In this document: positions 3,089 through 63,713 of the stretch, in pieces
How positions within the stretch are numbered: the first letter of the stretch is position 1
Layout of the letters: every line of letters begins with the position of its first letter
IMG/VR virus record: IMGVR_UViG_3300032213_001531
Coordinates: 1 to 64,000 of that record
DNA length: 64,000 bases
Source of the DNA: a virus
Direction: 5' to 3' (one strand)
Notes under the pieces: model-generated
The model's database searches: none
Seen by the model: only the letters and a program-made list of their open reading frames with translations
Told to the model about the DNA's origin: nothing
Program-made: the position numbers and the translations under genes

Positions 3089-3546
3089 GGATTTTCGAAA
3101 TTTATTTTTAAAAACAATCTATTACGAACTCTTAAAAAATAGCCCAGCTTTTGGAGTAACATTTTCCAAACCAAGGTATTACGAACCTCTCTAAAAAATC
3201 GCCAGGATTCTAGCATATCAAACCTTATATGTCAAATGCTCTATCAAACCTTATATCAGATAAACAATTGTTTGTCAAGGATATAGGGGTTTGTTTATAT
3301 ATAGGGGTATTACGAACTCTCTTATAAGTCCCCCGCTTTTTACGATGTCTAATTATCCTGTCAGACGCCCCAGGCCAGGGGATAAAGAACATCATCTGAT
3401 ACCCAAACACCCCTATATAAAACACTATATATAAAACAATAACTTTCTTTTATTTTATTTAATTTTATAAAACCTTTATATATTTTTATTACGAATATCA
3501 CACAAATTTCACAGAAATTGTCATACTATTTTGGTACAAAATATAC

Positions 3547-3575
3547 TTGACAAACACTAATGTTTGGTATATAAT
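3547..3575 (+). promoter_or_regulatory. Consensus sigma70/SigA promoter with no clear downstream ORF
   Basis: TTGACA-17 nt-TATAAT. Confidence 0.75.
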
Positions 3576-16433: not shown

Positions 16434-16715
16434 TTACCCCATTGTTAGTGACTGCCAGATACCTGCCCAGTCTTTTTTAGTCTTATGGCTATTAAATTCT
16501 TTAGATATGTTTCCATTTTCTATATAAATTCCGCCCCAAACTCCCCACTCTTTTTGAGAAACTCCAACAGCAAAGCATTGCTTTTTTACTGGACAAGAAG
16601 AACAAAGGTTATCAATAGCTAAGCGTAGATCAACCTCTTCTTCATATTTGTCAAAGAATAAGTTTGTGTCATACTCAAAACAAGCAGCATCTTCTTTCCA
16701 TTTATGCTTATTCAT
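16434..16715 (-). CDS. whiB: WhiB-family transcription factor
   Basis: W...A.C, FF, C..CPV...C and GVWGG motifs. Confidence 0.92.
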   Translation of the reverse strand: MNKHKWKEDAACFEYDTNLFFDKYEEEVDLRLAIDNLCSSCPVKKQCFAVGVSQKEWGVWGGIYIENGNISKEFNSHKTKKDWAGIWQSLTMG

Positions 16716-51082: not shown

Positions 51083-51777
51083 TACACTTCTTCCAATGTA
51101 CAAGAAACATTCCAGAAGTCATAGTTACTTCCACCACGCTTAACGACAGTATAACTAAAATCTGAAATAAACATTTCTATTAATTCATTATATTGTCCAA
51201 GGTGTGCGTAAGCTAAATTGTCTTTACCAAAATTAGAATACTTATCATAAGCAAGGTATACCCAAAAAGAACCTTTATGGCTATCATACCAATCTACAAG
51301 ATCTACTCCCCCTGCTCCACCATCAGTGGTGTATTCTTGATTTTGTATTGTAACATTTGGAAGTTGTGAGAATGACGCATCTGTTCCTGGCTCTCTTAAA
51401 CCTTCATCAATTAAAGATGTTTTTCCAGATGAGTTAAATGATGGATTTAAACCATGAGATCTAGATGGAAGCATGTTCCAAGATGTACCAATAGTTAGTT
51501 TGTCAGCAATATGATATGAGCGCATACGACCATTAATCATTCTTTCACGCTTTTCAATTCTGTTGTTATTAAAATTAATCTCTCCTCTATTATCATCAGA
51601 TAATATTAAGAATTGATCTAGCAAAGATTGATCTGATATACCAGTAGTATCAGCTTTTACTTCATAGCCGTTGGGAACATAAAGACCATTAGTAAGGGTT
51701 CCTGAGTTATTAGCCCAAAGCATTGCTTGTGGTCTAGCATACTTTCTTCTACCATTGATATATGTTTCTGTTGCCAT
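51082..51777 (-). CDS. Distal tail (Dit-like) protein
   Basis: Directly after the TMP; RM.NG.MR and W..S..LEEV. Confidence 0.7.
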   Translation of the reverse strand: MATETYINGRRKYARPQAMLWANNSGTLTNGLYVPNGYEVKADTTGISDQSLLDQFLILSDDNRGEINFNNNRIEKRERMINGRMRSYHIADKLTIGTSWNMLPSRSHGLNPSFNSSGKTSLIDEGLREPGTDASFSQLPNVTIQNQEYTTDGGAGGVDLVDWYDSHKGSFWVYLAYDKYSNFGKDNLAYAHLGQYNELIEMFISDFSYTVVKRGGSNYDFWNVSCTLEEV

Positions 51778-54700
51778 TAAAATCTACTCCCTCGAATTTT
51801 TTGTGAATCTATCTGTTTAATTTGAGCCATAACTGATCTAGCAATTTCATCAGGATTCGCATCTGACTTAACGTTTACGCTAATACTATAATTATACACT
51901 GCGTCGCCTACTGAATCTCCATTATTGATTGCTTTCATCTTGTCCGCACCATGAGTGTTAACAGCATACTTACTCATTACAAATTCTCCTGGAGTAAGCA
52001 TTGCTGGTACTGTATCTGTTCCCATAGCATAACCGCCTGAAGCAAAGAACTGAGGAATTAATCCACCTGAAGATTTAGCAGCAAAACCAGTACTAAAGTT
52101 AAACGGAGTAGGCTGGCCATCTTTATAATTAATTCCGTCTTTGTTACCAGTAAAAGGCTCCCAGCTATCAGTTTTTCTTCTATAGATAAGCGCTCCAACT
52201 CCTGTGTCTGTATAAACATCACCATTCTTATAATCATTTCCCCATACTGTATAGCTAGTCTGATTTGGTGATCCAATTAGTGGTTCAGAAAATGTTAACA
52301 TTGTTGCTGGATCATTTGCATTAGATGTTGTACTTGATGTTGTTGAAGAAGATGAAGATGTTGTTGAAGAAGATGAAGATGTTGTTGAAGAAGATGAAGA
52401 TGTTGTTGAAGAAGATGTTGTTGAAGAAGGGGAGGCTGTTGAAGTATTTCCAGATGTTGAATTTTTAGAGGCTATGGCTTTAGCTAATAAAGCATTTGCT
52501 TTTGCTAACCTATCAGAGTTCTTGGCTAAGAGTGCTGCATTTTGTTCTATCAAAGCATTTAAATTTTCTGCAATAGAATTTGATATTGACATGCCTGATT
52601 CAATAAGCTTTAAATTATTTTCTGCTTTAGTAATTGCATCTTGAGCAGTTTGCAATTCTGCAAGCCTTCCCTTATTCATATAATCACCAAAACGATCTGA
52701 CATGTCAGCATAAACTTGTTTTGCGTTATTGACAGCTGCAACTCCTTCATCATAACCTACAGGCTTAGTGTTTGCATTATTATTTAAAGCTGCATCTGCT
52801 GCTGCAAGAGCTGCGTCTAAAGCTGCTGTTGCCTGAGCGTCTATTGCATCTGCTGCATCTTGTGCTGCTTGTGCCATTGCTACTGCTGCTGCAGCTGCTG
52901 CGATGGCAGCGTTAGCTGCATCTTCCGCAATTTTAAGTGCTGCGTTAGCTGCTGCTGTATCTGCGTCTGCTGCTGCTTGTGCTTCTGCAAGAGCTTTTTC
53001 GGCTGCAGCTTTTTCTGCTGCAGTTACTGCCTCTGCTTTAATCTTGAGTGCTGCTGCAACAAGGGCGTCTGCCTCTGCCTTAGATTTTTCTGCTGCAGCT
53101 TTGGCATCAGCAATAATTTTGTCAGCAGCGGCTTTTGCATCCGCAGTAATTTTATCTGATGCAGCTTTAGCATCTGCTTCTGATTTAGCTACATTTGCTG
53201 TGCTTCCAGAATTAGTAACAATGGTTTGTGCAGTAGTCATTATCTTGGAGTCTTTTGCAGGTGTTGCTGCATAGGCACCAATTTTTGTCATAATTGATTC
53301 CCATTGTGCATTGATTGCTGTTGATGCTGCTAATAATGCAGCAAAGGCAGTATCTAAATCTTTTTTAGATAGATCATATGCTTTTACCTTAGCTTCAATT
53401 GCAGCCCAAGCATCTTTATTTTTTCCAAGGACAGTAGTTTCTTCAACTAATTTATCAAGTCTTGCTTGAATAGTTTCATTCTCGGTGTTTAAGGCAGCAA
53501 TCATTCTTTCTCTATCTACAACACTATCTTTAGTAATTTTAGCAATTTCATTTTCATAAGTCCGAATCTGCTTTAAGTTATTTTCTCTTAGCTGTTCTAA
53601 CTCATATATAGTTTTAGTTTTAGATTTAATACTATCTTGAATTGCTATTTTTCTAGGATCTGTTTCTAAAGCGTAAATGTCTTGAGAAATTTGATACTGC
53701 TTTTCTTTAATTTGATCTTGAGTAAGGCCCTGAGTTGCTACAAGCCTATCTAGTTCATTTTTTCTGGCTAGTTCAAAAGATTTTTGTGCTGCATTAGAGT
53801 ATAAATCTGCGCTTGCTTTTCGCATATCCTGCATTGCTTTTCCTGCTGCAGAAATATCTCCGCTAGTTAAAGCATCTGCTAAGCTAATCTGTTTTTCTTG
53901 TTGTGATAAAATTGCATCATTAATCTCTTTAACTGTTGTTAGGGATTCTGCTTGCTGATCGTAACGTTTATTAATTTCTTCTGCAGCATGATTAATAAGA
54001 TCTAAATCATGAGATAAGGCACTAGATTGATCTTGCAATGCTTGAATAGGCTCATTAAACTGAACATCAATTTGATGCTGTAGATCATTAATCTCTTTCT
54101 GATAATCATCAATCTTTTGACTAATATTAAGAGAAACTGCTGCTTGAATATCATTAATCTTATACTGAAGTTGCTCTATCTGTGCTTCATATGGGCGGAG
54201 TTGGCTTTGTAATTCTTTAATCTTTGTCTCATTAGCAGAAAGTTGTGCTACATCTTTAGTGCTTCTAGAATCTACACCAGTCTTAATTAGATCTTCCTGT
54301 ACCGCAAACATTTGGTTAACCATATCAAGACCAGAAGAAGCAACTTGAGCATAGTCTCCCTTGTTAAAGTTGATTTGAATATCAATTAGTTTCTTAGCTT
54401 CGATGTCTTTCAAGAACTCAGAAATTGCTCCTGTTGAACCTTCAATAGCTGCTATGTCAATTTTGCCATCTTTAATGTTTTGGGTGAACTGTTTTAGCAT
54501 TGCAGGGTTTCCAAGTACTGCGTCAATTTGCTCTACAGAATACCCCATAGACTTCATTGCACCTACTACTTCTGGAGTTTTTGCAAATACATCAAACTCT
54601 GCATTCTTTGTAAGGGTGTCAGTTATAACCTGCATCTTTTCCATTGCACTATTGGCTTCAGCAATATCTTTAATAAACTTCTTCATTTCATCTGAACCTG

Positions 54701-57700
54701 CAGCACCAAGGGTTCCAGCAGCAATAGCTGAAGCAAGAGATTGATCTTCAATTACTTTAAGTGCATCGGTAACAGACATTCCTGCACCTCTTAAAATCTC
54801 AAATGCTTCTCTTTGTTTTTTAATGTTGTCTATACTTTGGGCTGCACCAAATTGAGCCATACCAACAACTACTGAATTAAAGGCTTCGGACAACCCTAGT
54901 AAGTCTTCAGTTATTCCAATGACGTTTCCTTTATCGTCTAGCTTGAATGGTTTTTGTTTATCCTTTTTACTTGGGTTTACATCTGAGTTTTTAAAAGCTT
55001 CAAACTCTTCTGCTGACATTCCAGATATTGCATCCATGAGTCCTGAAGATACTCCACCCTCTAGCATTATTTGCTGTAGGCCCTTAAACTTTGCAAACAT
55101 TCTGCTAAGACCGCCTTCAGCACCTTTACTATTTTCAAAAATAGCCATGATAGATTTTAATGGGGTAAGAGCATTAAAAGCTGAATCTCTAAATAGTTTT
55201 AGCTTCATTCCTAAATCCTCTAGAAAAGAATATGCTCCCTTTAATGTATCTGCAGCTTCTTGTGCAGCTAGCTTTTTTAGATCAGCAGTCTTTGGACCAT
55301 AGATAGAATCCAGTCTTTCTTTTAGTAACTTATCCAAAGTGCTTTTAGCAATACCTGGGTTTGCTTTACTTAACTGATCTATTTGTGCTTGTATGAGAGC
55401 TGCTGAGTTTGCTAATGGAAGAGGAATATCTTTCCAAAGTCCTTTTTTCTTAAACGCATTAATTAATTCTGCATTCAACTCTTGTTGGATGTTATCTGAT
55501 ATCAACAACTGATTTAAAGTAACTGATGCTTCTAGCTGTAGTGTTGGATCATAACTACTTAATAGATCCCAATTTTTTACTGCAGCATCAAGTGCTTCAT
55601 TTGGGCTTTTCCCTTTTAACTTTAATTCAGCTTGATACGCAATTAGCGCTGGTTTAGTAAGCTTTCCTCCTGGGAAATGTTTTCTAAGGGCATCAATTTC
55701 TTTTCCAAGTTTTTTGAGTACGGGAATGTCATCTGGATCTGATTCTATATTTAAATCTATTCTAAACTCTGGAGGGAATTGAATAAAGTCTTCTAACATT
55801 GAGTAGAATTCTCTAGCTTGTTGAGGGCCTTCTTTGCCATTAAAAGTACCAGCAACATTGACTACAGTATTAATGTTTTCTTGATCTGATAAATTTTGAA
55901 GAATCCAGCCAAGAGAATCCATCTCTTTAGCTCCTTGGCCTCCTAACATTAATTTCCAAGTTGTTTCAACATTTTTTCCAGTTGCTATAAAGTTCTCAAT
56001 TAAAGCTTTTGCAGATCCAGCAGAAATGTCACCAGCTACGACTGATGCTTGAACCATAACTCCAATTTTTGTTACATCTTGAGTTGTTTTTGCTTTTAAT
56101 CCTTGAATAATCCTTACTTGATTCTGCATTTCAGCAATATATTCTGCTTGCGCTGCAGTAAATTCACCACTATTACTATCGTAGGAATCTCTTCTTGCTT
56201 GAATTTCTGCTACTCTTTTTTCTGACTCTGCTAGTTGTTTCTTTAATTCTTTTCTTTCTTCTGAAGAAATTCCAGCTTCTTTTGGAATCAGTTTTGAATC
56301 TGGATTTAGCAATGCACTAAGTTCTGTTGCTGCAAGCTTTTCTGGACCTACGGCATCTTTATATTTATCATCAAAGGCTGTCTTGTATGCTTCTGCATAT
56401 TTAACCTTTGCATCTTTGCCACTAATGTTGTCCAAGAATCCAGTAGCTCGATCTACAACGTCTACCCCTTGATTTCTTAACTCTTGTTGATCTTGAAGGT
56501 TTTGATCATTAAGATCTTTAATCTTCTTTTCAATTTCAAGTCTTTTTTCTGCAGTCTTAACGGCCTCTTTTTCTTTAGTAAGTTTTTCAATTTGAGCATC
56601 AGTTTGCATTTGTAGTAGATCCATAGATTGTTGAACTTGTGCTAGTGACTGAATTGAATTACCTGCTACTGCTCCAGCAACTGCTCCTACAGCTTTCTTC
56701 TCTCTACCTTGTTGATACTTTCTAAGAGCTAGATCTGCAGCAAGTGTTGTTGCTAATATAATTGCTCCAGGAAGTACTCCTGCGCCAGTTGCAGAAGCAC
56801 CTGTTCCTAATGCTGCTGCTCCTCTTATAACTCCTGCGCCAAATCTTGCCTTTCCTAAAGTTCCTGCTATTTGTGACTCTTTTGCAAAAGTTGCTGCAGC
56901 AGGTAGCGATCTAGCCCCAGCTATAACCCCTGTTTTATCAAGTTGACTAGCAATACGGGCGCCAAGAAGAGCGCCACCGACTGTGCTTCCTGCAAGCTCA
57001 AACCCCTCACGTTTATTGATTCCAGTCCTTAGTCCAACAGCCCCTGCTCCAGGCACATTCTGCATGAGGTTAGCAAACCATCCGCCCATTTCTTTTTCAA
57101 CAACATCACTAAAAATATTCTGCATTTGAGTAGTAAGTTGTTTTTGATTTTTTAATATCTTTAATTGAACCCCAATAGGGTTATCTTTTAGATTTTTTCC
57201 ATCGGGGCCGATGATTTCTCTTAAAATTCCTCTAGCTTCAATCTCTAAAGATTGATCTCCCATATCTCTTGCAAGATTTACAATGATTGATTCTGCCTGA
57301 TCTGCAGACAATACTCCTTGGCTTACTGCTGAAGCAAGTTTTGTTCCTAGTTGTTTAGCTGCACCTCTACCGTTTGATTTTGCGTAAGTGTTAAACTCAG
57401 CAATAAATTGTTTTCCAAATTCGCTACCTGAAAAATCTTTACCAAATGTTTGATCAATTGGAGTTATCTCAAGTCTATTTGCTTCTCTCTTCTTGTCCAT
57501 AATTTGTGTTGCAGACATTGTTCCAAGGATAGATCCAAAACCTTCCAAAGACTCAATGGTATTTCCAATAGATTGTCCTTGTTTAACTCCATCAGCAATA
57601 GATTTTCTAATTGCCATGCTCTGCATTTTAAATGAAACGCCTAATGCTACTACTGTGGCAATCAATTTCTTTAGCGGTGAATTAAGAAGTGGCAATATCA

Positions 57701-60700
57701 TTGGAAGCATAGATGCTCCCATAATTGCTGTCATGTGATTAGAAGCAAATTTTCCTGCTGTTGAATCAGGTGATCCTTGTGCAATTCCTTGAGCAAGCAT
57801 AGGAATCATCATGGCTGCCATTCCTACACCCATCATTGTTTGAGATGATTTCATTCTTTGATCTTGTCTTGCATTAATTCTTTGTTCTTTATTTAATGCA
57901 TTACCATCTTGATCGTGGGTTGCAACTTTTCCATACCCTGTCCAATAACCACCATGTGGCTTAGGACCGCTAGGTCCACCAGGACCAGCAGGGCCACCCA
58001 TAGATGACAGGCGAGCATCAATCTTTCTAACTCTATCCATTGCTTTTGCGCTTGCTGATTGAACCCTAGCATTATTTGCAACTGCCTTAGTTCCAGTTAC
58101 TACCGCCGTTCCAAACTTGCTAACTTGAGCTGTAGCTTTTCCAAGTACATCTGCTCCCTTTGAAGGTGGTGGTGTATTTGCTACTGGAGTTGCTCCCCAA
58201 CCATCACCCTTATCAACCATGGTGTATCCAGGAAGAGGTCTTGGAACTCCACCCTTACCGCCTCTACCACTACCATGTTCAGGAATTGTTCCATTAATCA
58301 TTCCTGAAACTAATGAAGAATATTTGGCTGCAGCCTTGGCTGGAATGACTGCTTCTCCAGGAGATAGCATTGCTGGTTGAATATCTCCCGCACCCTTTGG
58401 CCCTGGAACTGAAAAAATTCCTTTTGCTAATGCAAGAGTATCCGCTGGCATATAGTCTGAGTCTTTAAATTTCTGATTCTTGTAATATCCATCATGAATT
58501 CTTTTCCTTAATAAATGTTCAGTAATTATATCTGTAGTTGTCCAAGTGTCTGCTTTATTTTTTGCACCCCAACCTTTATATTGATGTCTTTTACTTTCTA
58601 ATTTACTAAGTGCTATCAATGCTTCTTTTTCAGTTGTTACGTGAATTGCGCCCATCCTTTTTGAAAGTGCATTCATTCCAGAGTTTATAACTGTCTGATC
58701 TCTCACAACATTGTCTGCTGGCCAAAACTCTAAATCTCTATTTTTACCAGTAGCTTTTATATGGCTTGCTGCGATTCCACCTTCGCCAGATCTGACTCTC
58801 TCTATTGCAGTTTGAAAGTCTGGTGCTTTTAATACAGCAAGTGCATCTGCTTCTGAAATTTTTCCAGTATTAACAAGATTCTTCTTTACAGAAGCAAGCT
58901 CTTCTGCATAATAATTTAATAGCTTTTGTGCTGGTTTATTTTTACTAGGGTCAGCAAGAACTTTTTGCCATCTACTATTTACCTCTGGTGGAGTGGCTCT
59001 AGTTCTTGATCCTGACCAAGGATTTACATTTGCAAACAAACCTTTACCAGAAGCTGTTCCTATGTCTAATGGTTTACCGCTTTCTTTATACTTTAAAATT
59101 CTTGCTTCTAAAGCTTTTACTTTTTGTGCATAAATTGTTTTATCTGGATATGCTGCTTCAAACTCTTTCCATCTTCCTTCAAACTTAGCAGCCTCTGATG
59201 CTTTTACGGTCATAGATTGACCACCTATTTGAATTTGTGACATTCCAGACCCAAGGCTACTAATCTTAAATGAGGTGCCAGGAGGTAATGGGGTGAGTGG
59301 TAATCTTGTTCTAGATTCTAGACTAGCAACTGTTGCTGCTTCTTTTGCCCCTGAAACTTTTACTGCTGAAGCTGCGCCGTACATGCCCAGTCTTCCAGCC
59401 ATGTATCCTGGAACTACTCCACCCTTAGCGAAACCATTTCCTTGTGCCCATTTAGAAAAACCTTCCATAAAGTCTTTATCAGATAAGGATGAGGCGTGTC
59501 CCTTTTGTCTTGCTCTTAATGTAATTTCATCTTCTATTTTTTTTATTGCTGCAGGAGTTAATGCTTTCTTTGGATTAGCAATTACTGATGAATGAATCCC
59601 GTGAAGTTCTCTCCAGTTCGCACCCCTAGAATCCTCTAAGCGTCTAACCATGTCTTGATAAATACCCTGCTCTTCTTTATTTAACTTAAATCCTGCTATT
59701 GTTGCTTTAAGTCTTGGAAGAGTTTCATCGATCTCTCGTATCATTCTTGTATGGTATTCTTCTGCAGTCATTCCCTTTGGAATATTAGATGTTGCTTCAG
59801 CAAAGAATCTTTTTGCATTTGATCCCTTTACGCCAAGTAAATTTATACGAACCTGATCTTCAACGGATGGCATGCCTTTTGAATATGTTCTAAAACCAGA
59901 TGCTGTATCAAAGACTCCAGCATTTCCAGCATCAACCATATTTCTACCAGACACATTTGCCATTTGGAGATCTTTGTCTCCTCTTACTCCAGAAGCTAAA
60001 AGTTGTGCAAAGTATTCATCTTCACTAAACTTGCCCGTTGGTTTTGCAAACTCAGGGTTGTAAGGGGCTTCAGATACAATAATTTTTCTTTTCTTTTGTG
60101 GATCCGTTGGATCAATCATTGTACGAATTGTGTGCTCTGGTGCTTTTAGTGGAAAGGCTTTGTTTGTAATAGTAGCCATTCTTTCCTCTGCTAAAGCAGC
60201 AGTCTCATCAACATATGGCTTAACAAATACCTTAGTTCCATCTGGCTTTTGATACAATCCGCCAATTCCTTTAACAGGAAATGAGTGCCCTGTGGTTGCT
60301 TCAAGTTGAACGCCAAAATCTGTTGGATCCATGTTAGCAAATCGACTTGCTTCAGTTCCTTTTCCAATTGACTCCATTGATAGTCTTGCTTTACGTTGTA
60401 TATTAACTGCTTTAATGCTTTTTGGCATACCCAAAAATAGTGGCATTCTTCCAAGTATATGACCTGGCAAAGTTCCGTCAATCATCTGTCCAATAAATGG
60501 TGCATACTTCTTAGCCATGTCAGCAGGAATAACGGCTTCTCCAGGGGTTAGAAGGGCTGGGGTAGTATCTTTATTACCTGTTCCAGGAACACTTGTCACA
60601 CCCTTGGCAAAACGTCTTGGAGGGGTAACTCTGCCCCTGCTTGGCATAAACATTCCAGGGTTTGTACTAGCAAAACTAGACATTGCAACTTTTGCTTCTC

Positions 60701-62618
60701 TGTAAGCATTAGTTAAGGCAACAAGGCTTGCTGACTCAAGGACATATGCGGAAGACAAAGATTTATGGGCTGTTGCAAGACTATTTGATACAGCAATATT
60801 TTCTAGCTCTTCATTGCTGAGGTACTGTGTTCCAAGGGCTGCATCTTTTGATCCATAAGCTAAACCTTGAAAACCTTTACGAATAAGATTAAACATCTTC
60901 ATTAAGTTAGCTAAACCGTTAGCAACAAGACCAACGGTCATAAGTAGAATTGGACCAATACCAGCAACTGCTGCTACAATAATTGCTACTGCTTTTTTAA
61001 TTCCTTCAGGAGCATTGTTAAATTTATCAAACAGCTTAACAAAGAAATTAATAACTGGAGTCAATACCTTTGCAAACAATTCACCAATTGGAGCAATAGA
61101 TGCTTTAAGTTTTTCAATTGCTGCTTGCATTTTATACATAGGAGATGATTCCTGTGTTTTTAATTCTCTCTCAGATAACAGCGCCAACTCTTCTGCAGAT
61201 GCAGATGCCAATTTTAAAACTCTGCTTGCTTGGTTTCCTTCTTTTGTTACGTTATTTAAAAGTGCTGAGATTCTTGAAAACTGATACTTGCCAAAAACTT
61301 TTTCAATTGTTTGTGCTCTTTGTAGGTCTGTTAGTGGTTGTAATGCTTGAGCAAAAGAAACAACAGTATTTTTTAAGTTACCCTGATTGCTTTCAATAAT
61401 TCCCTTAAGGTTAATGCCTAGCTTTGAAGTTGCTTCAGTTGCTGCTTTTGATGGATTAATTAAAGATGCAAGACCAGACTTAAGTGCGTTAGCTCCTTGC
61501 TCTGCACTAATACCACCTTCTTTCATTGCTGTAAGGAAGAATGCTAAATCTTTTACATCTCCGCCAAGCTGTTTAATAACTGGAGCAACTCTTGGAATGG
61601 CATTAGATAAATCTTCAAGGCTTAAAACAGTTTGGTTTTCAACAGAGTTAAGAAAGTCCATTGTTTTAGATAGTTCGCCACTACCAATAGCAAAAGCATT
61701 TTGTAATGCAATTGTTGTTTCTAAAGCTTTGTCTTGTGCAACTCCACCAAGGACTGCTAATTTGTTTGCTTGTCTTACTACCGTATCAAGTTGCTGCCCT
61801 GAGTTACCTGCTGCTGCTGCATCTGCAGCCATCTTGATTGTTTCAGAAACTTTAAGTCCATACTTTGTATACTCTTTAGCAATATCTTTCATGTTTTTAA
61901 GGGCTTTGTCAGTATCATCTTGTGTTGTAAAGATGTCTCCATAAACCTTTTTAAATCTAATTGCTTGAGTTTCAATTTCTTTAAATGCTTTTATTGCTGA
62001 TCCTGCGAACATAGCTAAAGGAATTGTAAAACCAACCATAAGCTGGCGACCAGCCCACTGTGTATTCTTACCAAAGTTTAGAAGTTTTGTAGCACCATCG
62101 TCAAGCAGCTTATTCATTATCTGTTGACGTTGAATAGTCATTGACATTCTTGTTAATGCGTCGTTATAATTAAGTGCTTTTGGTGTAATTCGCATTGAGC
62201 GGATTGCACCCTGTGCGTCTTTACCTAGTTGGACATACTGGCTTTGAAGAGCCTTAACTCTTTTTTCAGCAAGGTTGCTAATTGTTTGAAATTCTCTAGC
62301 GTAATTCTTTCCAAATGTTTTAGTGGAAGCCATGCCATATCGATAGTATTCACGAAGTGATAGCTTGCCAGCTTCCAGACGTTTTGAAAACTGATCTGTA
62401 GAAGTTGCCATCTTGCCCATTGAGGCATTAAACATGCCTGTGGCATTAATGTTATGTAAAAGTGATTTTGAAAAATCGGCTTGAGCTAGTGATGCAGCTT
62501 TTGTGCCGACGATCATGGAACGGTTAAGTGCAGATATCTGCTTGTCTAGCCCACGTAGTGCGGACATAGCTTGTGTTGTATCAATATTAATTAAAATATT
62601 GCTGTTTACATCTGTCAT
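51777..62618 (-). CDS. Tape measure protein with inserted enzymatic domains
   Basis: TP901-like TMP core (AAAAG, ENQT, G.....GANAL), coiled coils; follows the tail chaperones. Confidence 0.92.
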   Translation of the reverse strand: MTDVNSNILINIDTTQAMSALRGLDKQISALNRSMIVGTKAASLAQADFSKSLLHNINATGMFNASMGKMATSTDQFSKRLEAGKLSLREYYRYGMASTKTFGKNYAREFQTISNLAEKRVKALQSQYVQLGKDAQGAIRSMRITPKALNYNDALTRMSMTIQRQQIMNKLLDDGATKLLNFGKNTQWAGRQLMVGFTIPLAMFAGSAIKAFKEIETQAIRFKKVYGDIFTTQDDTDKALKNMKDIAKEYTKYGLKVSETIKMAADAAAAGNSGQQLDTVVRQANKLAVLGGVAQDKALETTIALQNAFAIGSGELSKTMDFLNSVENQTVLSLEDLSNAIPRVAPVIKQLGGDVKDLAFFLTAMKEGGISAEQGANALKSGLASLINPSKAATEATSKLGINLKGIIESNQGNLKNTVVSFAQALQPLTDLQRAQTIEKVFGKYQFSRISALLNNVTKEGNQASRVLKLASASAEELALLSERELKTQESSPMYKMQAAIEKLKASIAPIGELFAKVLTPVINFFVKLFDKFNNAPEGIKKAVAIIVAAVAGIGPILLMTVGLVANGLANLMKMFNLIRKGFQGLAYGSKDAALGTQYLSNEELENIAVSNSLATAHKSLSSAYVLESASLVALTNAYREAKVAMSSFASTNPGMFMPSRGRVTPPRRFAKGVTSVPGTGNKDTTPALLTPGEAVIPADMAKKYAPFIGQMIDGTLPGHILGRMPLFLGMPKSIKAVNIQRKARLSMESIGKGTEASRFANMDPTDFGVQLEATTGHSFPVKGIGGLYQKPDGTKVFVKPYVDETAALAEERMATITNKAFPLKAPEHTIRTMIDPTDPQKKRKIIVSEAPYNPEFAKPTGKFSEDEYFAQLLASGVRGDKDLQMANVSGRNMVDAGNAGVFDTASGFRTYSKGMPSVEDQVRINLLGVKGSNAKRFFAEATSNIPKGMTAEEYHTRMIREIDETLPRLKATIAGFKLNKEEQGIYQDMVRRLEDSRGANWRELHGIHSSVIANPKKALTPAAIKKIEDEITLRARQKGHASSLSDKDFMEGFSKWAQGNGFAKGGVVPGYMAGRLGMYGAASAVKVSGAKEAATVASLESRTRLPLTPLPPGTSFKISSLGSGMSQIQIGGQSMTVKASEAAKFEGRWKEFEAAYPDKTIYAQKVKALEARILKYKESGKPLDIGTASGKGLFANVNPWSGSRTRATPPEVNSRWQKVLADPSKNKPAQKLLNYYAEELASVKKNLVNTGKISEADALAVLKAPDFQTAIERVRSGEGGIAASHIKATGKNRDLEFWPADNVVRDQTVINSGMNALSKRMGAIHVTTEKEALIALSKLESKRHQYKGWGAKNKADTWTTTDIITEHLLRKRIHDGYYKNQKFKDSDYMPADTLALAKGIFSVPGPKGAGDIQPAMLSPGEAVIPAKAAAKYSSLVSGMINGTIPEHGSGRGGKGGVPRPLPGYTMVDKGDGWGATPVANTPPPSKGADVLGKATAQVSKFGTAVVTGTKAVANNARVQSASAKAMDRVRKIDARLSSMGGPAGPGGPSGPKPHGGYWTGYGKVATHDQDGNALNKEQRINARQDQRMKSSQTMMGVGMAAMMIPMLAQGIAQGSPDSTAGKFASNHMTAIMGASMLPMILPLLNSPLKKLIATVVALGVSFKMQSMAIRKSIADGVKQGQSIGNTIESLEGFGSILGTMSATQIMDKKREANRLEITPIDQTFGKDFSGSEFGKQFIAEFNTYAKSNGRGAAKQLGTKLASAVSQGVLSADQAESIIVNLARDMGDQSLEIEARGILREIIGPDGKNLKDNPIGVQLKILKNQKQLTTQMQNIFSDVVEKEMGGWFANLMQNVPGAGAVGLRTGINKREGFELAGSTVGGALLGARIASQLDKTGVIAGARSLPAAATFAKESQIAGTLGKARFGAGVIRGAAALGTGASATGAGVLPGAIILATTLAADLALRKYQQGREKKAVGAVAGAVAGNSIQSLAQVQQSMDLLQMQTDAQIEKLTKEKEAVKTAEKRLEIEKKIKDLNDQNLQDQQELRNQGVDVVDRATGFLDNISGKDAKVKYAEAYKTAFDDKYKDAVGPEKLAATELSALLNPDSKLIPKEAGISSEERKELKKQLAESEKRVAEIQARRDSYDSNSGEFTAAQAEYIAEMQNQVRIIQGLKAKTTQDVTKIGVMVQASVVAGDISAGSAKALIENFIATGKNVETTWKLMLGGQGAKEMDSLGWILQNLSDQENINTVVNVAGTFNGKEGPQQAREFYSMLEDFIQFPPEFRIDLNIESDPDDIPVLKKLGKEIDALRKHFPGGKLTKPALIAYQAELKLKGKSPNEALDAAVKNWDLLSSYDPTLQLEASVTLNQLLISDNIQQELNAELINAFKKKGLWKDIPLPLANSAALIQAQIDQLSKANPGIAKSTLDKLLKERLDSIYGPKTADLKKLAAQEAADTLKGAYSFLEDLGMKLKLFRDSAFNALTPLKSIMAIFENSKGAEGGLSRMFAKFKGLQQIMLEGGVSSGLMDAISGMSAEEFEAFKNSDVNPSKKDKQKPFKLDDKGNVIGITEDLLGLSEAFNSVVVGMAQFGAAQSIDNIKKQREAFEILRGAGMSVTDALKVIEDQSLASAIAAGTLGAAGSDEMKKFIKDIAEANSAMEKMQVITDTLTKNAEFDVFAKTPEVVGAMKSMGYSVEQIDAVLGNPAMLKQFTQNIKDGKIDIAAIEGSTGAISEFLKDIEAKKLIDIQINFNKGDYAQVASSGLDMVNQMFAVQEDLIKTGVDSRSTKDVAQLSANETKIKELQSQLRPYEAQIEQLQYKINDIQAAVSLNISQKIDDYQKEINDLQHQIDVQFNEPIQALQDQSSALSHDLDLINHAAEEINKRYDQQAESLTTVKEINDAILSQQEKQISLADALTSGDISAAGKAMQDMRKASADLYSNAAQKSFELARKNELDRLVATQGLTQDQIKEKQYQISQDIYALETDPRKIAIQDSIKSKTKTIYELEQLRENNLKQIRTYENEIAKITKDSVVDRERMIAALNTENETIQARLDKLVEETTVLGKNKDAWAAIEAKVKAYDLSKKDLDTAFAALLAASTAINAQWESIMTKIGAYAATPAKDSKIMTTAQTIVTNSGSTANVAKSEADAKAASDKITADAKAAADKIIADAKAAAEKSKAEADALVAAALKIKAEAVTAAEKAAAEKALAEAQAAADADTAAANAALKIAEDAANAAIAAAAAAVAMAQAAQDAADAIDAQATAALDAALAAADAALNNNANTKPVGYDEGVAAVNNAKQVYADMSDRFGDYMNKGRLAELQTAQDAITKAENNLKLIESGMSISNSIAENLNALIEQNAALLAKNSDRLAKANALLAKAIASKNSTSGNTSTASPSSTTSSSTTSSSSSTTSSSSSTTSSSSSTTSSTTSNANDPATMLTFSEPLIGSPNQTSYTVWGNDYKNGDVYTDTGVGALIYRRKTDSWEPFTGNKDGINYKDGQPTPFNFSTGFAAKSSGGLIPQFFASGGYAMGTDTVPAMLTPGEFVMSKYAVNTHGADKMKAINNGDSVGDAVYNYSISVNVKSDANPDEIARSVMAQIKQIDSQKIRGSRF
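52336..52428 (-). repeat. 21-nt and 15-nt tandem repeats encoding a Ser/Thr linker in the TMP
   Basis: GATGTTGTTGAAGAAGATGAA x3 and GATGTTGTTGAAGAA x2 (+ strand). Confidence 0.9.
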
Positions 62619-62648: not shown

Positions 62649-62975
62649 TTATTCTTGTGAAGCAAGTGCAAGTAATGCTGAATCATTTAGATTGATACCT
62701 GATGCTGCTTCAATGATCTTGTATACTGTTGGCAGATCAACTAAATCTTCCAAATCAGCAACAGAGTAGTCTGCGTCTGCTTTATATTGTTTCATTGCAA
62801 TGTGGACACATTCAATTAGGATGTCCATTGATTTTTCGTTATCTGTTGCTACTGCTGTTAGTCCTTCAAAAGATTTCATAAACGGTCTAAGTAAAGAAAT
62901 CTTAAGTGGCTGTGCGTCAATTTTTGTTCCGTCGATAAAGACGATCTCATTCTTTTCAATTGGCTTAGTTGCCAT
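62649..62975 (-). CDS. Tail assembly chaperone, short (G-like) form
   Basis: Between major tail and TMP genes; AGGAGG RBS; own TGGTATAAT. Confidence 0.75.
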   Translation of the reverse strand: MATKPIEKNEIVFIDGTKIDAQPLKISLLRPFMKSFEGLTAVATDNEKSMDILIECVHIAMKQYKADADYSVADLEDLVDLPTVYKIIEAASGINLNDSALLALASQE

Positions 62976-63026
62976 GTATAACCTCCTGTGGTTGTAAATC
63001 AATTATACCATAGGCAGGCTTATTTT

Positions 63027-63713
63027 TTAGTCTATTTTTTCGTAAGACAATCCCATACCAATACCAAAACCAGCCTTTTGTGCATTTACTCCTTGCAATG
63101 CTAAAACGTCTTTTGAGTTAGCTGCTGTGCCACCGCTGTAAACTCTAGCTTTTAGCTCTTCCCAGGCATTTCCAGTACTCTTATTACTTGCCTTATCTAG
63201 GTCAACACCTTGCATTGCTGCTAAAAATTTCTGTTCATCGTATCTTGATTCTCTTTTACTTTCAAGAGTTGCTATTAGTTCTGGCATTGATAAAGACTCT
63301 TCTAATTGATTGTAGTCTTTCCAGATGCCCAGCAAAAATAACTCAGACTCTAGCTTTGCTAAATCTAATGTTTCCCAAGAAGATCCACTTTCTACTGCTT
63401 GCTCTTTAACGCTTTGCTCTGAATCTTTATCTACTTTAATACCTGCTGCAATATCTATTAGTTTATATATTGTAGGAAGGTCAAAGTTATCTTCTAGATC
63501 CTCTACCGTCTTTATTTCTGGCATATATTGTTGCATGGCAATTCTGGCACACTCTACTAGATTTTCAATAGTGTCTTGATCCCCTTGAGATTTTCTAACA
63601 ATTTCAAAAGCAACCATAAATTGTCTTAAATATTTTATTTTTAATGGAGTGATATAAAGTGGCGTTCCATCAACTAAATAAAGGACTTCACTATTGTATA
63701 TTCTCGTAGCCAT
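63027..63713 (-). CDS. Tail assembly chaperone, long (GT-like) form
   Basis: N-half homologous to 62649..62975; C-half L.....W....LE..LS..EL resembles a T domain. Confidence 0.75.
   Translation of the reverse strand: MATRIYNSEVLYLVDGTPLYITPLKIKYLRQFMVAFEIVRKSQGDQDTIENLVECARIAMQQYMPEIKTVEDLEDNFDLPTIYKLIDIAAGIKVDKDSEQSVKEQAVESGSSWETLDLAKLESELFLLGIWKDYNQLEESLSMPELIATLESKRESRYDEQKFLAAMQGVDLDKASNKSTGNAWEELKARVYSGGTAANSKDVLALQGVNAQKAGFGIGMGLSYEKID

What the first reader, a model, noticed from the sequence alone, without database searches (positions are those of the whole stretch)
59585..60300. HipA/PI3K-like kinase domain inside the tape measure
Seen, in the expected order: Gly-rich loop KGIGGLY, beta3 Lys in VFVK, alphaC Glu in ALAEE, catalytic-loop-like RGDKDLQMAN (compare D-R/L-H-x-x-N) and metal-binding VDAG (compare IDFG/IDHG), followed by a helical lobe. 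Known: this order defines the PI3/PI4-kinase-HipA-CtkA fold, and phage kinases such as T7 gp0.7 rewire host translation and defence. Inference: a virion-delivered kinase for host takeover or anti-defence. The His-to-Gln change in the catalytic loop may alter its activity.
Basis: partly seen in the sequence, partly recalled or inferred. Interest (0 to 1): 0.82.

Follow-up and report, generated by a model that had tools for sequence, protein, structure and literature searches.

The report
Kinase-fold cassette inside phage tape measure
The 3,613-residue tail "ruler" protein of this uncultured lake phage carries an optional 350-residue module that is predicted to fold like an atypical protein or lipid kinase and keeps every catalytic residue, so the virion may bring a ready-made kinase to its host together with the DNA; neither activity nor delivery has been tested.

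Summary
Observation confirmed. All five motifs lie in order on the minus strand, in one 3,613-aa ORF (51777-62618) that is a TP901-type tape measure protein (TMP).

The domain (aa 726-1085) matches no Pfam, PHROG or PDB sequence, and no cultured phage genome. It has 165 representative relatives, nearly all giant TMPs, and occurs on 377 viral contigs. Across 130 sequences K800, E811, N888 and D896 are invariant; D883 is kept in 129.

It is therefore a new sequence family of the kinase-like superfamily, and not a member of HipA, PI3/4K or CotH by sequence. The "His-to-Gln" position is simply variable.

The module is accessory and mobile. Of the 120 closest TMPs, 38 lack it through a clean indel, and kinase similarity is discordant with TMP-backbone similarity. 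A lake relative keeps the kinase but has a different neighbouring domain.

Delivery into the host remains inference. The precedent is the Thermus phage P23-45 TMP-fused RNA polymerase.

This scan has reported the same family on many other genomes.

The parts
51777..62618 (-). Tail tape measure protein gene, 3,613 aa (P0001)
   Evidence: A single open frame. Pfam PF10145 matches at aa 248-443 (E 1.5e-27). PHROG 10030 'tail length tape measure protein' matches at E 2.5e-91. Full-length relatives of 2,700-4,400 aa exist. A tail-chaperone-like pair lies upstream and minor tail proteins lie downstream.
60579..62618 (-). Conserved N-terminal TMP backbone (aa 1-680), including the hydrophobic segment at aa 539-575
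   Evidence: Shared by about 220 of 250 compared giant TMPs. The closest 120 homologues are at least 64% identical over this part. Hydropathy peak of 2.55 at aa 539-570.
60453..60605 (-). PGE module 1 (aa 672-722; FAKG..VPG..PALLTPGEAVIP..), directly before the kinase
   Evidence: The three copies in this protein align with each other. The motif recurs at aa 687, 1415 and 3538.
59364..60443 (-). Kinase-fold module as modelled (aa 726-1085). It includes an N-terminal helix (aa 735-756) and low-confidence C-terminal helices.
   Evidence: AlphaFold2 model m2b1b1361950f, mean pLDDT 82.7, pTM 0.75. 165 representative homologues. 377 viral contigs.
59574..60338 (-). Kinase core (aa 761-1015) that superposes on solved kinases
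60252..60290 (-). Extended nucleotide-binding loop between beta1 and beta2 (aa 777-789, G-H-S-F-P-V-K-G-I-G-G-L-Y)
   Evidence: G777 and G787 are kept in 130/130, S779 in 129/130 and Y789 in 126/130. The loop lies between strands 45-49 and 62-65 of the model.
60219..60221 (-). Lys800, the beta3 lysine
   Evidence: Kept in 130/130. It sits at the end of model strand 71-76.
60186..60188 (-). Glu811, the alphaC glutamate
   Evidence: Kept in 130/130. It lies inside model helix 80-96.
59955..59984 (-). Catalytic loop R879-G-D881-K-D883-L-Q-M-A-N888 (D883-x4-N888)
   Evidence: R879 124, D881 124, K882 116, D883 129, L884 128 and N888 130 of 130. Positions 885-887 are variable. The loop follows model helix 141-154, with pLDDT above 90.
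59925..59933 (-). D896-A-G898, the metal-binding (DFG-equivalent) aspartate
   Evidence: D896 is kept in 130/130 and G898 in 126/130. It lies directly after the beta-hairpin at model residues 164-169.
58383..59363 (-). Variable neighbouring cargo domain ('domain 2', aa 1086-1412), fold not recognised
58278..58430 (-). PGE module 2 (aa 1397-1447), closing the cargo region
   Evidence: Alignment of the three modules. 76% identical to the module after the kinase in P0279.
51909..52052 (-). PGE module 3 (aa 3523-3570) in the C-terminal TMP end
   Evidence: The C-terminal 110 aa are shared with 80-90 relatives.

Best explanation
Residues 726-1085 of the tape measure protein form a complete bilobal kinase-fold domain. 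It belongs to a previously unnamed sequence family within the protein-kinase-like superfamily.

Predicted catalytic mechanism (inferred from the fold and the invariant residues):
- ATP sits under the long Gly/Ser-rich loop (G777...G787).
- ATP is held by the K800-E811 pair.
- Mg2+ is bound by N888 and D896.
- D883 acts as the catalytic base that moves the gamma-phosphate to a hydroxyl group.

Status of the module (shown): it is not part of the ruler itself. It is an optional cassette that sits among PGE-motif modules in the N-terminal third of the TMP. Related phages gain it, lose it, or place it differently.

Most likely function (inferred): the module is built into the virion as part of the TMP and leaves the tail with it at infection. 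It then acts at the inner face of the host membrane or in the cytoplasm as the DNA enters, before any phage gene is expressed. There it phosphorylates a host component, more likely a protein than a lipid, and so favours infection. The host is probably a freshwater actinobacterium.

My odds: kinase fold with an intact active site, about 0.9; delivered and acting in the newly infected cell, about 0.5. The confidence given for this entry is for the whole statement, including delivery.

For: Active site: K800, E811, N888 and D896 are kept in 130/130 sequences and D883 in 129/130, across 30-86% identity. Each sits on the expected element of the model.

TMP identity.

Accessory, mobile cargo:
- 38 of the 120 closest TMP backbones lack the domain.
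- P0279 compared with P0305 shows a clean indel of kinase plus one PGE module. The order of kinase and neighbouring cassette is inverted between P0001 and P0279.
- TMPs only 37-41% identical in the backbone carry kinases 55-62% identical. Backbones 60-70% identical carry kinases 41-57% identical.
- A lake contig keeps the kinase at about 96% nucleotide identity but has a different neighbouring domain.

Position: the kinase lies at a median 0.34 of TMP length. Wall-binding or wall-cutting domains of relatives (CHAP, LysM, OmpA) lie far C-terminal, at aa 2720-2920.

Precedent for a cytoplasm-acting enzyme in the N-terminal part of a giant TMP: the P23-45 gp96 virion RNA polymerase (PMC10770324).

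Host hint: a WhiB gene in the same phage.
Against: - No biochemical evidence of ATP binding or phosphotransfer exists.
- It is not known whether the domain stays in the mature virion. TMPs are often processed, and the flanking PGE modules could be cleavage or docking sites.
- A folded domain of about 35 kDa in three copies fits poorly in a siphovirus tail lumen, so it would have to travel unfolded or partly folded.
- If the ejected TMP stays outside the cytoplasmic membrane there is no ATP.
- CotH and Fam20C, which are among the best matches, act on assembly substrates rather than on an enemy cell.
- No target, no immunity or inhibitor gene and no cultured host are known.
Confidence: 0.5

Rival explanations
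1. The domain is a delivered lipid or envelope-precursor kinase rather than a protein kinase. It would phosphorylate a membrane lipid at the site where the TMP inserts, and so help channel formation or DNA entry. Phosphatidylinositol, which actinobacteria make, is one candidate; a polyprenol or cell-wall precursor is another.
Confidence: 0.15
2. The kinase works in the producer cell, not in the next host. It would phosphorylate the TMP itself, other tail proteins or host factors late in infection, much as CotH phosphorylates spore-coat proteins during assembly. It may then be trimmed off or ride along passively.
For: The best structural match, CotH, is an assembly-stage kinase (its role is from my own knowledge). 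ATP is certainly available in the producer cytoplasm. TMPs are commonly processed, and the module is flanked by repeated PGE modules that could be processing sites.
Against: The domain is dispensable for close relatives with the same backbone and tail genes, so it is not needed for tail assembly as such. The one obvious candidate cis substrate, the Ser/Thr tract at aa 3398-3432, occurs in fewer than 1% of kinase-bearing TMPs. A free-standing late gene would do this job equally well, yet almost all of the 165 representatives are embedded in giant TMPs.
Confidence: 0.12
3. The domain has the kinase fold but does not transfer phosphate to a substrate. It could carry out another nucleotide-dependent reaction (AMPylation or another transfer, as in some kinase-fold enzymes). 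It could act only as an ATP-binding or ATP-hydrolysing switch for TMP ejection. Or it could be a structural spacer.
For: Kinase-fold enzymes with other chemistries exist (own knowledge). The catalytic loop is unusual, with a second conserved Asp (D881, 124/130) and no His. There is no sequence link to any characterised kinase family.
Against: The full canonical set (Lys, Glu, D-x4-N and Asp-x-Gly) is kept with the canonical spacing and on the canonical elements in 129-130 of 130 sequences. This is the pattern of active phosphotransferases, not of pseudokinases. A spacer would not keep these residues.
Confidence: 0.1
4. The motifs are a chance resemblance inside an ordinary structural part of the tape measure.
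For: Each motif is short. The ordered loose pattern still turns up in 0.65% of shuffled copies of this very long protein. There is no Pfam, PHROG or PDB sequence hit.
Against: The putative catalytic residues are invariant across 130 diverged sequences. The model is confident, and the 50 best structural neighbours are all kinase-fold proteins.
Confidence: 0.03

Closest known systems
CotH, atypical protein kinase of the Bacillus spore coat (PDB 5jda; Pfam PF08757)
   Different: Only 6% identity in the structural alignment. PF08757 finds nothing in this phage record and Pfam finds nothing in the domain. CotH is a free-standing bacterial protein, not a module of a virion protein.
PI4-kinase type II alpha, Legionella MavQ and H. 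pylori CtkA (atypical lipid and protein kinases; PDB 4hnd/4pla, 7m7a, 3akj)
   Different: No sequence membership: PF00454 appears only as one sub-threshold hit in 45 relatives. The catalytic loop lacks the DRH histidine. The delivery vehicle here would be a phage tail.
HipA/HipT toxin kinases (PDB 4pu3, 5k98, 7ab3; Pfam HipA_C)
   Different: hhalign against E. coli HipA gives probability 0.35%. There is no HipA N-terminal domain and no HipB-type partner. The His of D-R-H-x-K-N is absent.
Thermus phage P23-45 gp96, a 5,002-aa tape measure protein whose N-terminal part is a virion RNA polymerase (Chaban et al. 2024, PMC10770324)
   Same: A giant TMP with an NTP-using enzyme in its N-terminal part. 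According to the paper, the enzyme is present in virions, and the authors propose that it acts at the TMP pore as the DNA enters. This is the closest analogue for how the kinase would work.
   Different: The enzyme class is different (two-barrel RNA polymerase versus kinase fold). The RNA polymerase is needed to express pre-early genes, whereas the kinase is dispensable in sibling phages. There is no homology.
Kinase domains of phage and plasmid 'polyvalent proteins' (Iyer, Burroughs and Aravind 2017, PMC5512222) and the T7 gp0.7 kinase
   Same: These are phage-borne protein kinases proposed (polyvalent proteins) or shown (T7) to modify host proteins early in infection. Polyvalent proteins are multidomain cargo thought to enter with the DNA. 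Weak structural hits to kinase-like parts of large phage proteins, some fused to ADP-ribosyltransferase or portal domains, were also seen in BFVD (E 3e-4 to 3e-3).
   Different: The polyvalent-protein kinases are Ser/Thr/Tyr-type and defined by loss of the whole C-terminal subdomain. Here the helical C-lobe is present. That paper does not mention tape measure proteins (0 occurrences). T7 gp0.7 is expressed after entry and is not carried in the virion (own knowledge).
Enzymatic motifs in ordinary tape measure proteins (peptidoglycan hydrolase motif of mycobacteriophage TM4, Piuri and Hatfull 2006; CHAP and LysM in relatives here) and TMP-like effectors of contractile injection systems (Nagakubo et al. 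2026, PMC13277306)
   Same: The TMP serves as a carrier of exchangeable functional domains that act on the target cell.
   Different: The TMP-embedded enzymatic motifs named here are wall-acting and need no ATP. 'Kinase' does not occur in PMC13277306.

Membership tests
Protein-kinase-like (PKL) superfamily | Bilobal fold: N-lobe beta-sheet with an alphaC helix, and a helical C-lobe | tested here: met
   [not shown]
Protein-kinase-like (PKL) superfamily | beta3 Lys paired with alphaC Glu | tested here: met
   K800 and E811 are kept in 130/130 sequences. They lie on model strand 71-76 and helix 80-96. The salt bridge itself could not be measured because no coordinates are available.
Protein-kinase-like (PKL) superfamily | Catalytic loop D-x4-N after the alphaE-equivalent helix, and a metal-binding Asp after the following beta-hairpin | tested here: met
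   D883 129/130, N888 130/130 and D896 130/130. The loop is at model residues 155-163, the hairpin at 164-169 and the Asp at 171.
Protein-kinase-like (PKL) superfamily | ATP binding and phosphotransfer | not testable with these tools
   This needs biochemistry.
HipA family (Pfam HipA_C / HipA_2) | Significant sequence match to the family profile or to HipA | tested here: not met
   No Pfam family for the domain. hhalign of alignment A2 against E. coli K-12 HipA gives probability 0.35%. The only lead is a sub-threshold language-model score of 0.84.
HipA family (Pfam HipA_C / HipA_2) | D-R-H-x-K-N catalytic loop, HipA N-terminal domain and a HipB-type antitoxin partner | tested here: not met
   The loop is D-L-x-x-x-N, with a variable residue at the His position. 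The domain is embedded in a TMP between PGE modules.
PI3/PI4-kinase catalytic domain (Pfam PF00454) | Profile match at or above the Pfam threshold | tested here: not met
   No families for the window's domain. One of 45 relatives matches at E 0.0082, below significance.
PI3/PI4-kinase catalytic domain (Pfam PF00454) | Structural similarity of the catalytic core | tested here: met
   [not shown]
CotH kinase (Pfam PF08757) | Profile match | tested here: not met
   PF08757 has no match in the whole 104,993-bp record, while the search does find it in control genomes. Pfam scans find no hit.
CotH kinase (Pfam PF08757) | Structural similarity | tested here: met
   [not shown]
Polyvalent-protein kinases (Iyer et al. 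2017) | Ser/Thr/Tyr-type kinase that has lost the entire C-terminal subdomain | tested here: not met
   The definition comes from PMC5512222. Here a helical C-lobe (model residues 194-290) is present and aligns to solved kinases.
Tail tape measure protein, TP901 family (Pfam PF10145) | Profile match, great length, hydrophobic segments, and position between the tail chaperone genes and the distal tail genes | tested here: met
   PF10145 E 1.5e-27. PHROG 10030 E 2.5e-91. Neighbouring genes. Hydrophobic segments.
TMP-fused virion enzymes (P23-45 gp96 type) | Enzyme domain in one polypeptide with the TMP, in its N-terminal part | tested here: met
   The kinase is at aa 726-1085 of 3,613. Its median relative position in 310 relatives is 0.34.
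TMP-fused virion enzymes (P23-45 gp96 type) | Enzyme present in virions and active in the newly infected cell | not testable with these tools
   The phage is uncultured. Contigs of an RNA library cover the region, but this does not show transcription, let alone delivery.

The most novel reading that the evidence does not exclude
These giant tape measure proteins carry a kinase-fold family that occurs, as far as the searches here show, almost only inside TMPs. The enzyme would be injected with the tail's ruler protein and would phosphorylate a host protein or membrane lipid at the moment of DNA entry, before any phage gene is expressed. That would be the first kinase effector delivered through a siphovirus tail. 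It would also be part of a swappable cargo region that turns the TMP into a polymorphic effector carrier in freshwater actinophages.
Probability: 0.4. Interest if true: 0.8.

Novelty: new variant of a known kind. Interest (0 to 1): 0.66.

Why it matters
Tape measure proteins are usually treated as rulers and channel formers. The embedded enzymes known so far are wall hydrolases and, in one Thermus phage, an RNA polymerase.

A conserved kinase module that appears catalytically intact, found in hundreds of uncultured lake phages, would add protein or lipid phosphorylation to what a virion can do to its host in the first seconds of infection.

It would also define a new family of the kinase-like superfamily with no profile in Pfam or PHROGs.

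Sibling phages with and without the module offer a natural experiment for finding its target, which might be a host defence, a cell-envelope process or a signalling pathway of actinobacteria.

The module boundaries seen here (PGE modules, clean indels, swapped neighbouring domain) also suggest how TMP cargo is exchanged.

Tried and rejected
- Sequence searches of the domain found nothing: Pfam and PHROGs, PDB sequences by phmmer and by a 45-sequence profile, and tblastn against 50,697 GenBank phage genomes.
- hhalign of the family alignment against the single E. coli HipA sequence found nothing. This is a weak test, because only one sequence stood on the HipA side.
- I considered that the Ser/Thr tract at aa 3398-3432 is a CotG-like cis substrate. 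I rejected this because such tracts occur in 0.6% of 310 kinase-bearing TMPs and in none of 40 kinase-less ones.
- The genome-contig scan gave one hit, on an 85-kb contig of a MAG labelled Bifidobacterium. I do not take this as host evidence, because the contig is probably a binned phage.
Most of the other hits under 500 aa begin or end inside the domain and look like fragments.
- Contigs of an RNA library (X18) cover the kinase region at 90-99% identity. This cannot show transcription.
- The parts without cover in runs X2, X3 and X18 are not evidence of absence.
- Control genomes of the genome search yield no loci, so no CotH sequence could be fetched for a profile comparison.
Full report
WHAT IS THERE. 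The window is the first 64 kb of a 104,993-bp IMG/VR virus record estimated 97% complete. The finding lies on the minus strand inside one 3,613-codon open frame, 51777-62618.

- Pfam PF10145 matches at aa 248-443 (E 1.5e-27).
- PHROG 10030 'tail length tape measure protein' matches at aa 58-794 (E 2.5e-91).
- Two paralogous chaperone-like genes lie upstream, and a 231-aa ORF and a 1,533-aa minor tail protein lie downstream.

A loose ordered pattern for the set is found once in the real protein and in 13 of 2,000 shuffles. So the motifs alone are suggestive, not decisive.

THE DOMAIN IS A CONSERVED FAMILY. I took aa 726-1085 (window 59364-60443, minus strand) as the module. It has no hit in Pfam, PHROGs or PDB sequences, either as a single sequence or as a profile. 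It has none in 50,697 GenBank phage genomes by tblastn.

An exhaustive phmmer search of 1.84 billion representatives found 165 relatives, 140 of them below E 1e-30. Nearly all are proteins of 2,000-4,400 residues, with the domain at varying offsets. The 90%-identity database holds 672 such giant proteins; where a source names them, the name is nearly always 'TP901 family phage tail tape measure protein'. In IMG/VR, 377 contigs encode the domain.

In an alignment of 130 domains (30-86% identical):
- G777, G787, K800, E811, Q872, N888 and D896 are invariant.
- D883 and S779 are kept in 129 sequences.
- R879 and D881 are kept in 124, and K882 in 116.

THE FOLD. AlphaFold2 with a 45-sequence alignment gave mean pLDDT 82.7 and pTM 0.75. 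Model residue i corresponds to aa 725+i. The order of elements is that of a protein-kinase-like (PKL) domain:
- beta1 (model residues 45-49);
- a 12-residue Gly/Ser-rich loop;
- beta2 (62-65);
- beta3 (71-76), ending in K800;
- alphaC (80-96), carrying E811;
- beta4 and beta5;
- a long helix (141-154), followed by the loop G880-N888;
- a beta-hairpin (164-169);
- D896 at residue 171;
- a helical lobe (194-290).

Sub-threshold leads point the same way:
- PF00454 in 1 of 45 relatives.
- LepB_N, PI3_PI4_kinase and HipA_2 clusters at scores of 0.84-0.85.
- Kinase-like parts of large phage proteins, some fused to ADP-ribosyltransferase or portal domains, in BFVD at E 3e-4 to 3e-3.

I conclude, at about 0.9, that this is a PKL-fold domain with a complete catalytic set. 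It is a new family by sequence. It is not a member of HipA, PI3/PI4K or CotH.

IT IS OPTIONAL, MOBILE CARGO.
- Presence or absence: among the 120 TMPs closest in the N-terminal backbone (at least 64% identical over aa 1-690), 82 carry the domain and 38 do not. The 38 are about 300 residues shorter.
- Clean indel: P0279 (with kinase) and P0305 (without) align continuously, except that P0279 has an extra stretch of about 285 residues, the kinase plus one 'PGE' module.
- PGE modules: this roughly 50-residue module (FAKG..VPG..PAxL[ST]PGE..VIP) occurs three times in the window's protein, at aa 672-722, 1397-1447 and 3523-3570.
- Order differs: here it is PGE1 - kinase - domain 2 - PGE2. In P0279 it is PGE - a domain-2-like cassette - PGE - kinase - PGE.
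- Discordant similarity: TMPs only 37-41% identical in the backbone carry kinases 55-62% identical. Backbones 60-70% identical carry kinases 41-57% identical. The sample is the union of two searches, so the correlation figure is biased, but the discordant pairs exist.
- Variable neighbour: domain 2 is shared over its whole length by only 6-8 of 250 relatives.
- Swap in a near-identical relative: a contig from an independent freshwater metagenome keeps the kinase at about 96% nucleotide identity (64 differences in 1,717 bases). It has 912 unrelated bases in place of 58421-59385, which is domain 2 (tables 5 and 8).
- Position: in 310 relatives the kinase lies at a median 0.34 of TMP length (5th-95th percentile 0.17-0.51), and none has two copies. 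Wall-acting domains of relatives (CHAP, LysM, OmpA) lie at aa 2720-2920.

HOW IT MOST LIKELY WORKS. Shown: the fold, the conserved catalytic residues, TMP membership and accessory status.

The rest is inferred. The C-terminal end of a TMP sits at the tail tip and leaves first. The N-terminal part follows, next to the DNA (established knowledge of siphovirus tails).

An N-terminal enzyme of a giant TMP that is present in virions and transcribes pre-early genes is documented for Thermus phage P23-45. Its authors propose that the enzyme sits at the TMP pore while the DNA passes (PMC10770324). By analogy, the kinase would reach the inner face of the membrane or the cytoplasm, where ATP is available, and phosphorylate a host component before phage genes are expressed.

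The hydrophobic segments at aa 539-575 and 1595-1670 bracket the cargo region. That would be compatible with a loop exposed on one side of the membrane. The substrate class is open, because protein kinases and lipid kinases are equally near in structure.

The host is probably an actinobacterium. The phage has a WhiB gene at 16527-16700 (E 5e-13, above the Pfam cut-off; among the 14 control genomes only Corynebacterium has the family). Near-identical DNA is held by lake-water metagenomes of many studies.

The rivals are an assembly-stage kinase in the producer cell, a lipid or precursor kinase, and a non-phosphotransfer use of the fold. They are listed with their tests. Chance resemblance is effectively excluded.

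WHAT IS KNOWN.
- Phage kinases are known: T7 gp0.7, and the kinase domains of 'polyvalent proteins', which lack the C-lobe. That paper never mentions tape measure proteins (PMC5512222).
- TMP-borne enzymes and swappable TMP-like effectors are known: peptidoglycan hydrolase motifs, the P23-45 RNA polymerase, and effectors of contractile injection systems (PMC13277306).
- Full-text searches combining 'tape measure' with kinase terms found no description of a kinase inside a TMP.

I therefore class it as a new variant of a known kind: a TMP-carried enzyme whose enzyme belongs to a new PKL family.

EARLIER NOTES OF THIS SCAN. The same family has been reported by this scan on many other genomes, with similar verdicts. 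I treated those notes only as leads. The P23-45 paper I read myself. The actinobacterial host I tested through WhiB. The HNH idea for domain 2 I tested and did not confirm.

LIMITS.
- There is no biochemistry and no cultured phage or host.
- Retention of the domain in mature virions is unknown.

Noticed in passing
window 58421-59385 (-), aa about 1078-1399: A contig from an independent freshwater metagenome (run X2, 8,159 nt) matches the kinase and the PGE2 side at about 94-96% nucleotide identity. It has 912 unrelated bases in place of these 963. So the domain next to the kinase is a swapped cassette in near-identical phages.
   Followed up: partly
[not shown]
   Followed up: partly
window 60453-60605, 58278-58430 and 51909-52052 (-): There are three copies of a roughly 50-residue 'PGE' module (FAKG..VPG..PAxL[ST]PGE.VIP). 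Two flank the cargo region, and the third lies in the normal C-terminal end of the TMP. In relatives the kinase indel includes one such module. The modules may be recombination, docking or processing sites.
   Followed up: partly
window 16527-16700 (-): A WhiB-family gene (PF02467, E 5e-13, above the cut-off) lies in a 107-aa open frame. It suggests an actinobacterial host for this phage of about 36% G+C.
   Followed up: partly
window 52323-52427 (-), aa 3398-3432; also aa about 3100-3300: A 35-residue pure Ser/Thr tract and a long Ala-rich stretch (up to 49% Ala) lie near the C-terminus of the TMP. The Ser/Thr tract is not a trait of the family: it occurs in fewer than 1% of relatives.
   Followed up: yes
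window 62649-63002 and 63027-63713 (-): The two genes directly upstream of the TMP are paralogues; both match PHROG 10504. The longer one has a C-terminal extension that matches PHROG 10474. They look like a tail-chaperone pair encoded as two genes.
   Followed up: no
relatives P0257, P0265, P0217, P0225, P0154: Some kinase-bearing TMPs also carry CHAP plus LysM, OmpA-like or LysM domains at about aa 2720-2920, far C-terminal of the kinase. Wall-acting cargo and kinase cargo therefore occupy different parts of the ruler.
   Followed up: partly
BFVD hits to model m2b1b1361950f: There are weak structural matches (E 3e-4 to 3e-3) to kinase-like parts of large phage proteins. These are annotated as ADP-ribosyltransferase (Mycobacterium phage Onyinye, 1,340 aa), HK97 portal (1,201 aa) and 'PI3K/PI4K catalytic domain' proteins of uncultured and haloarchaeal tailed viruses. 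Atypical kinase modules may be a wider theme in virion polyproteins.
   Followed up: no
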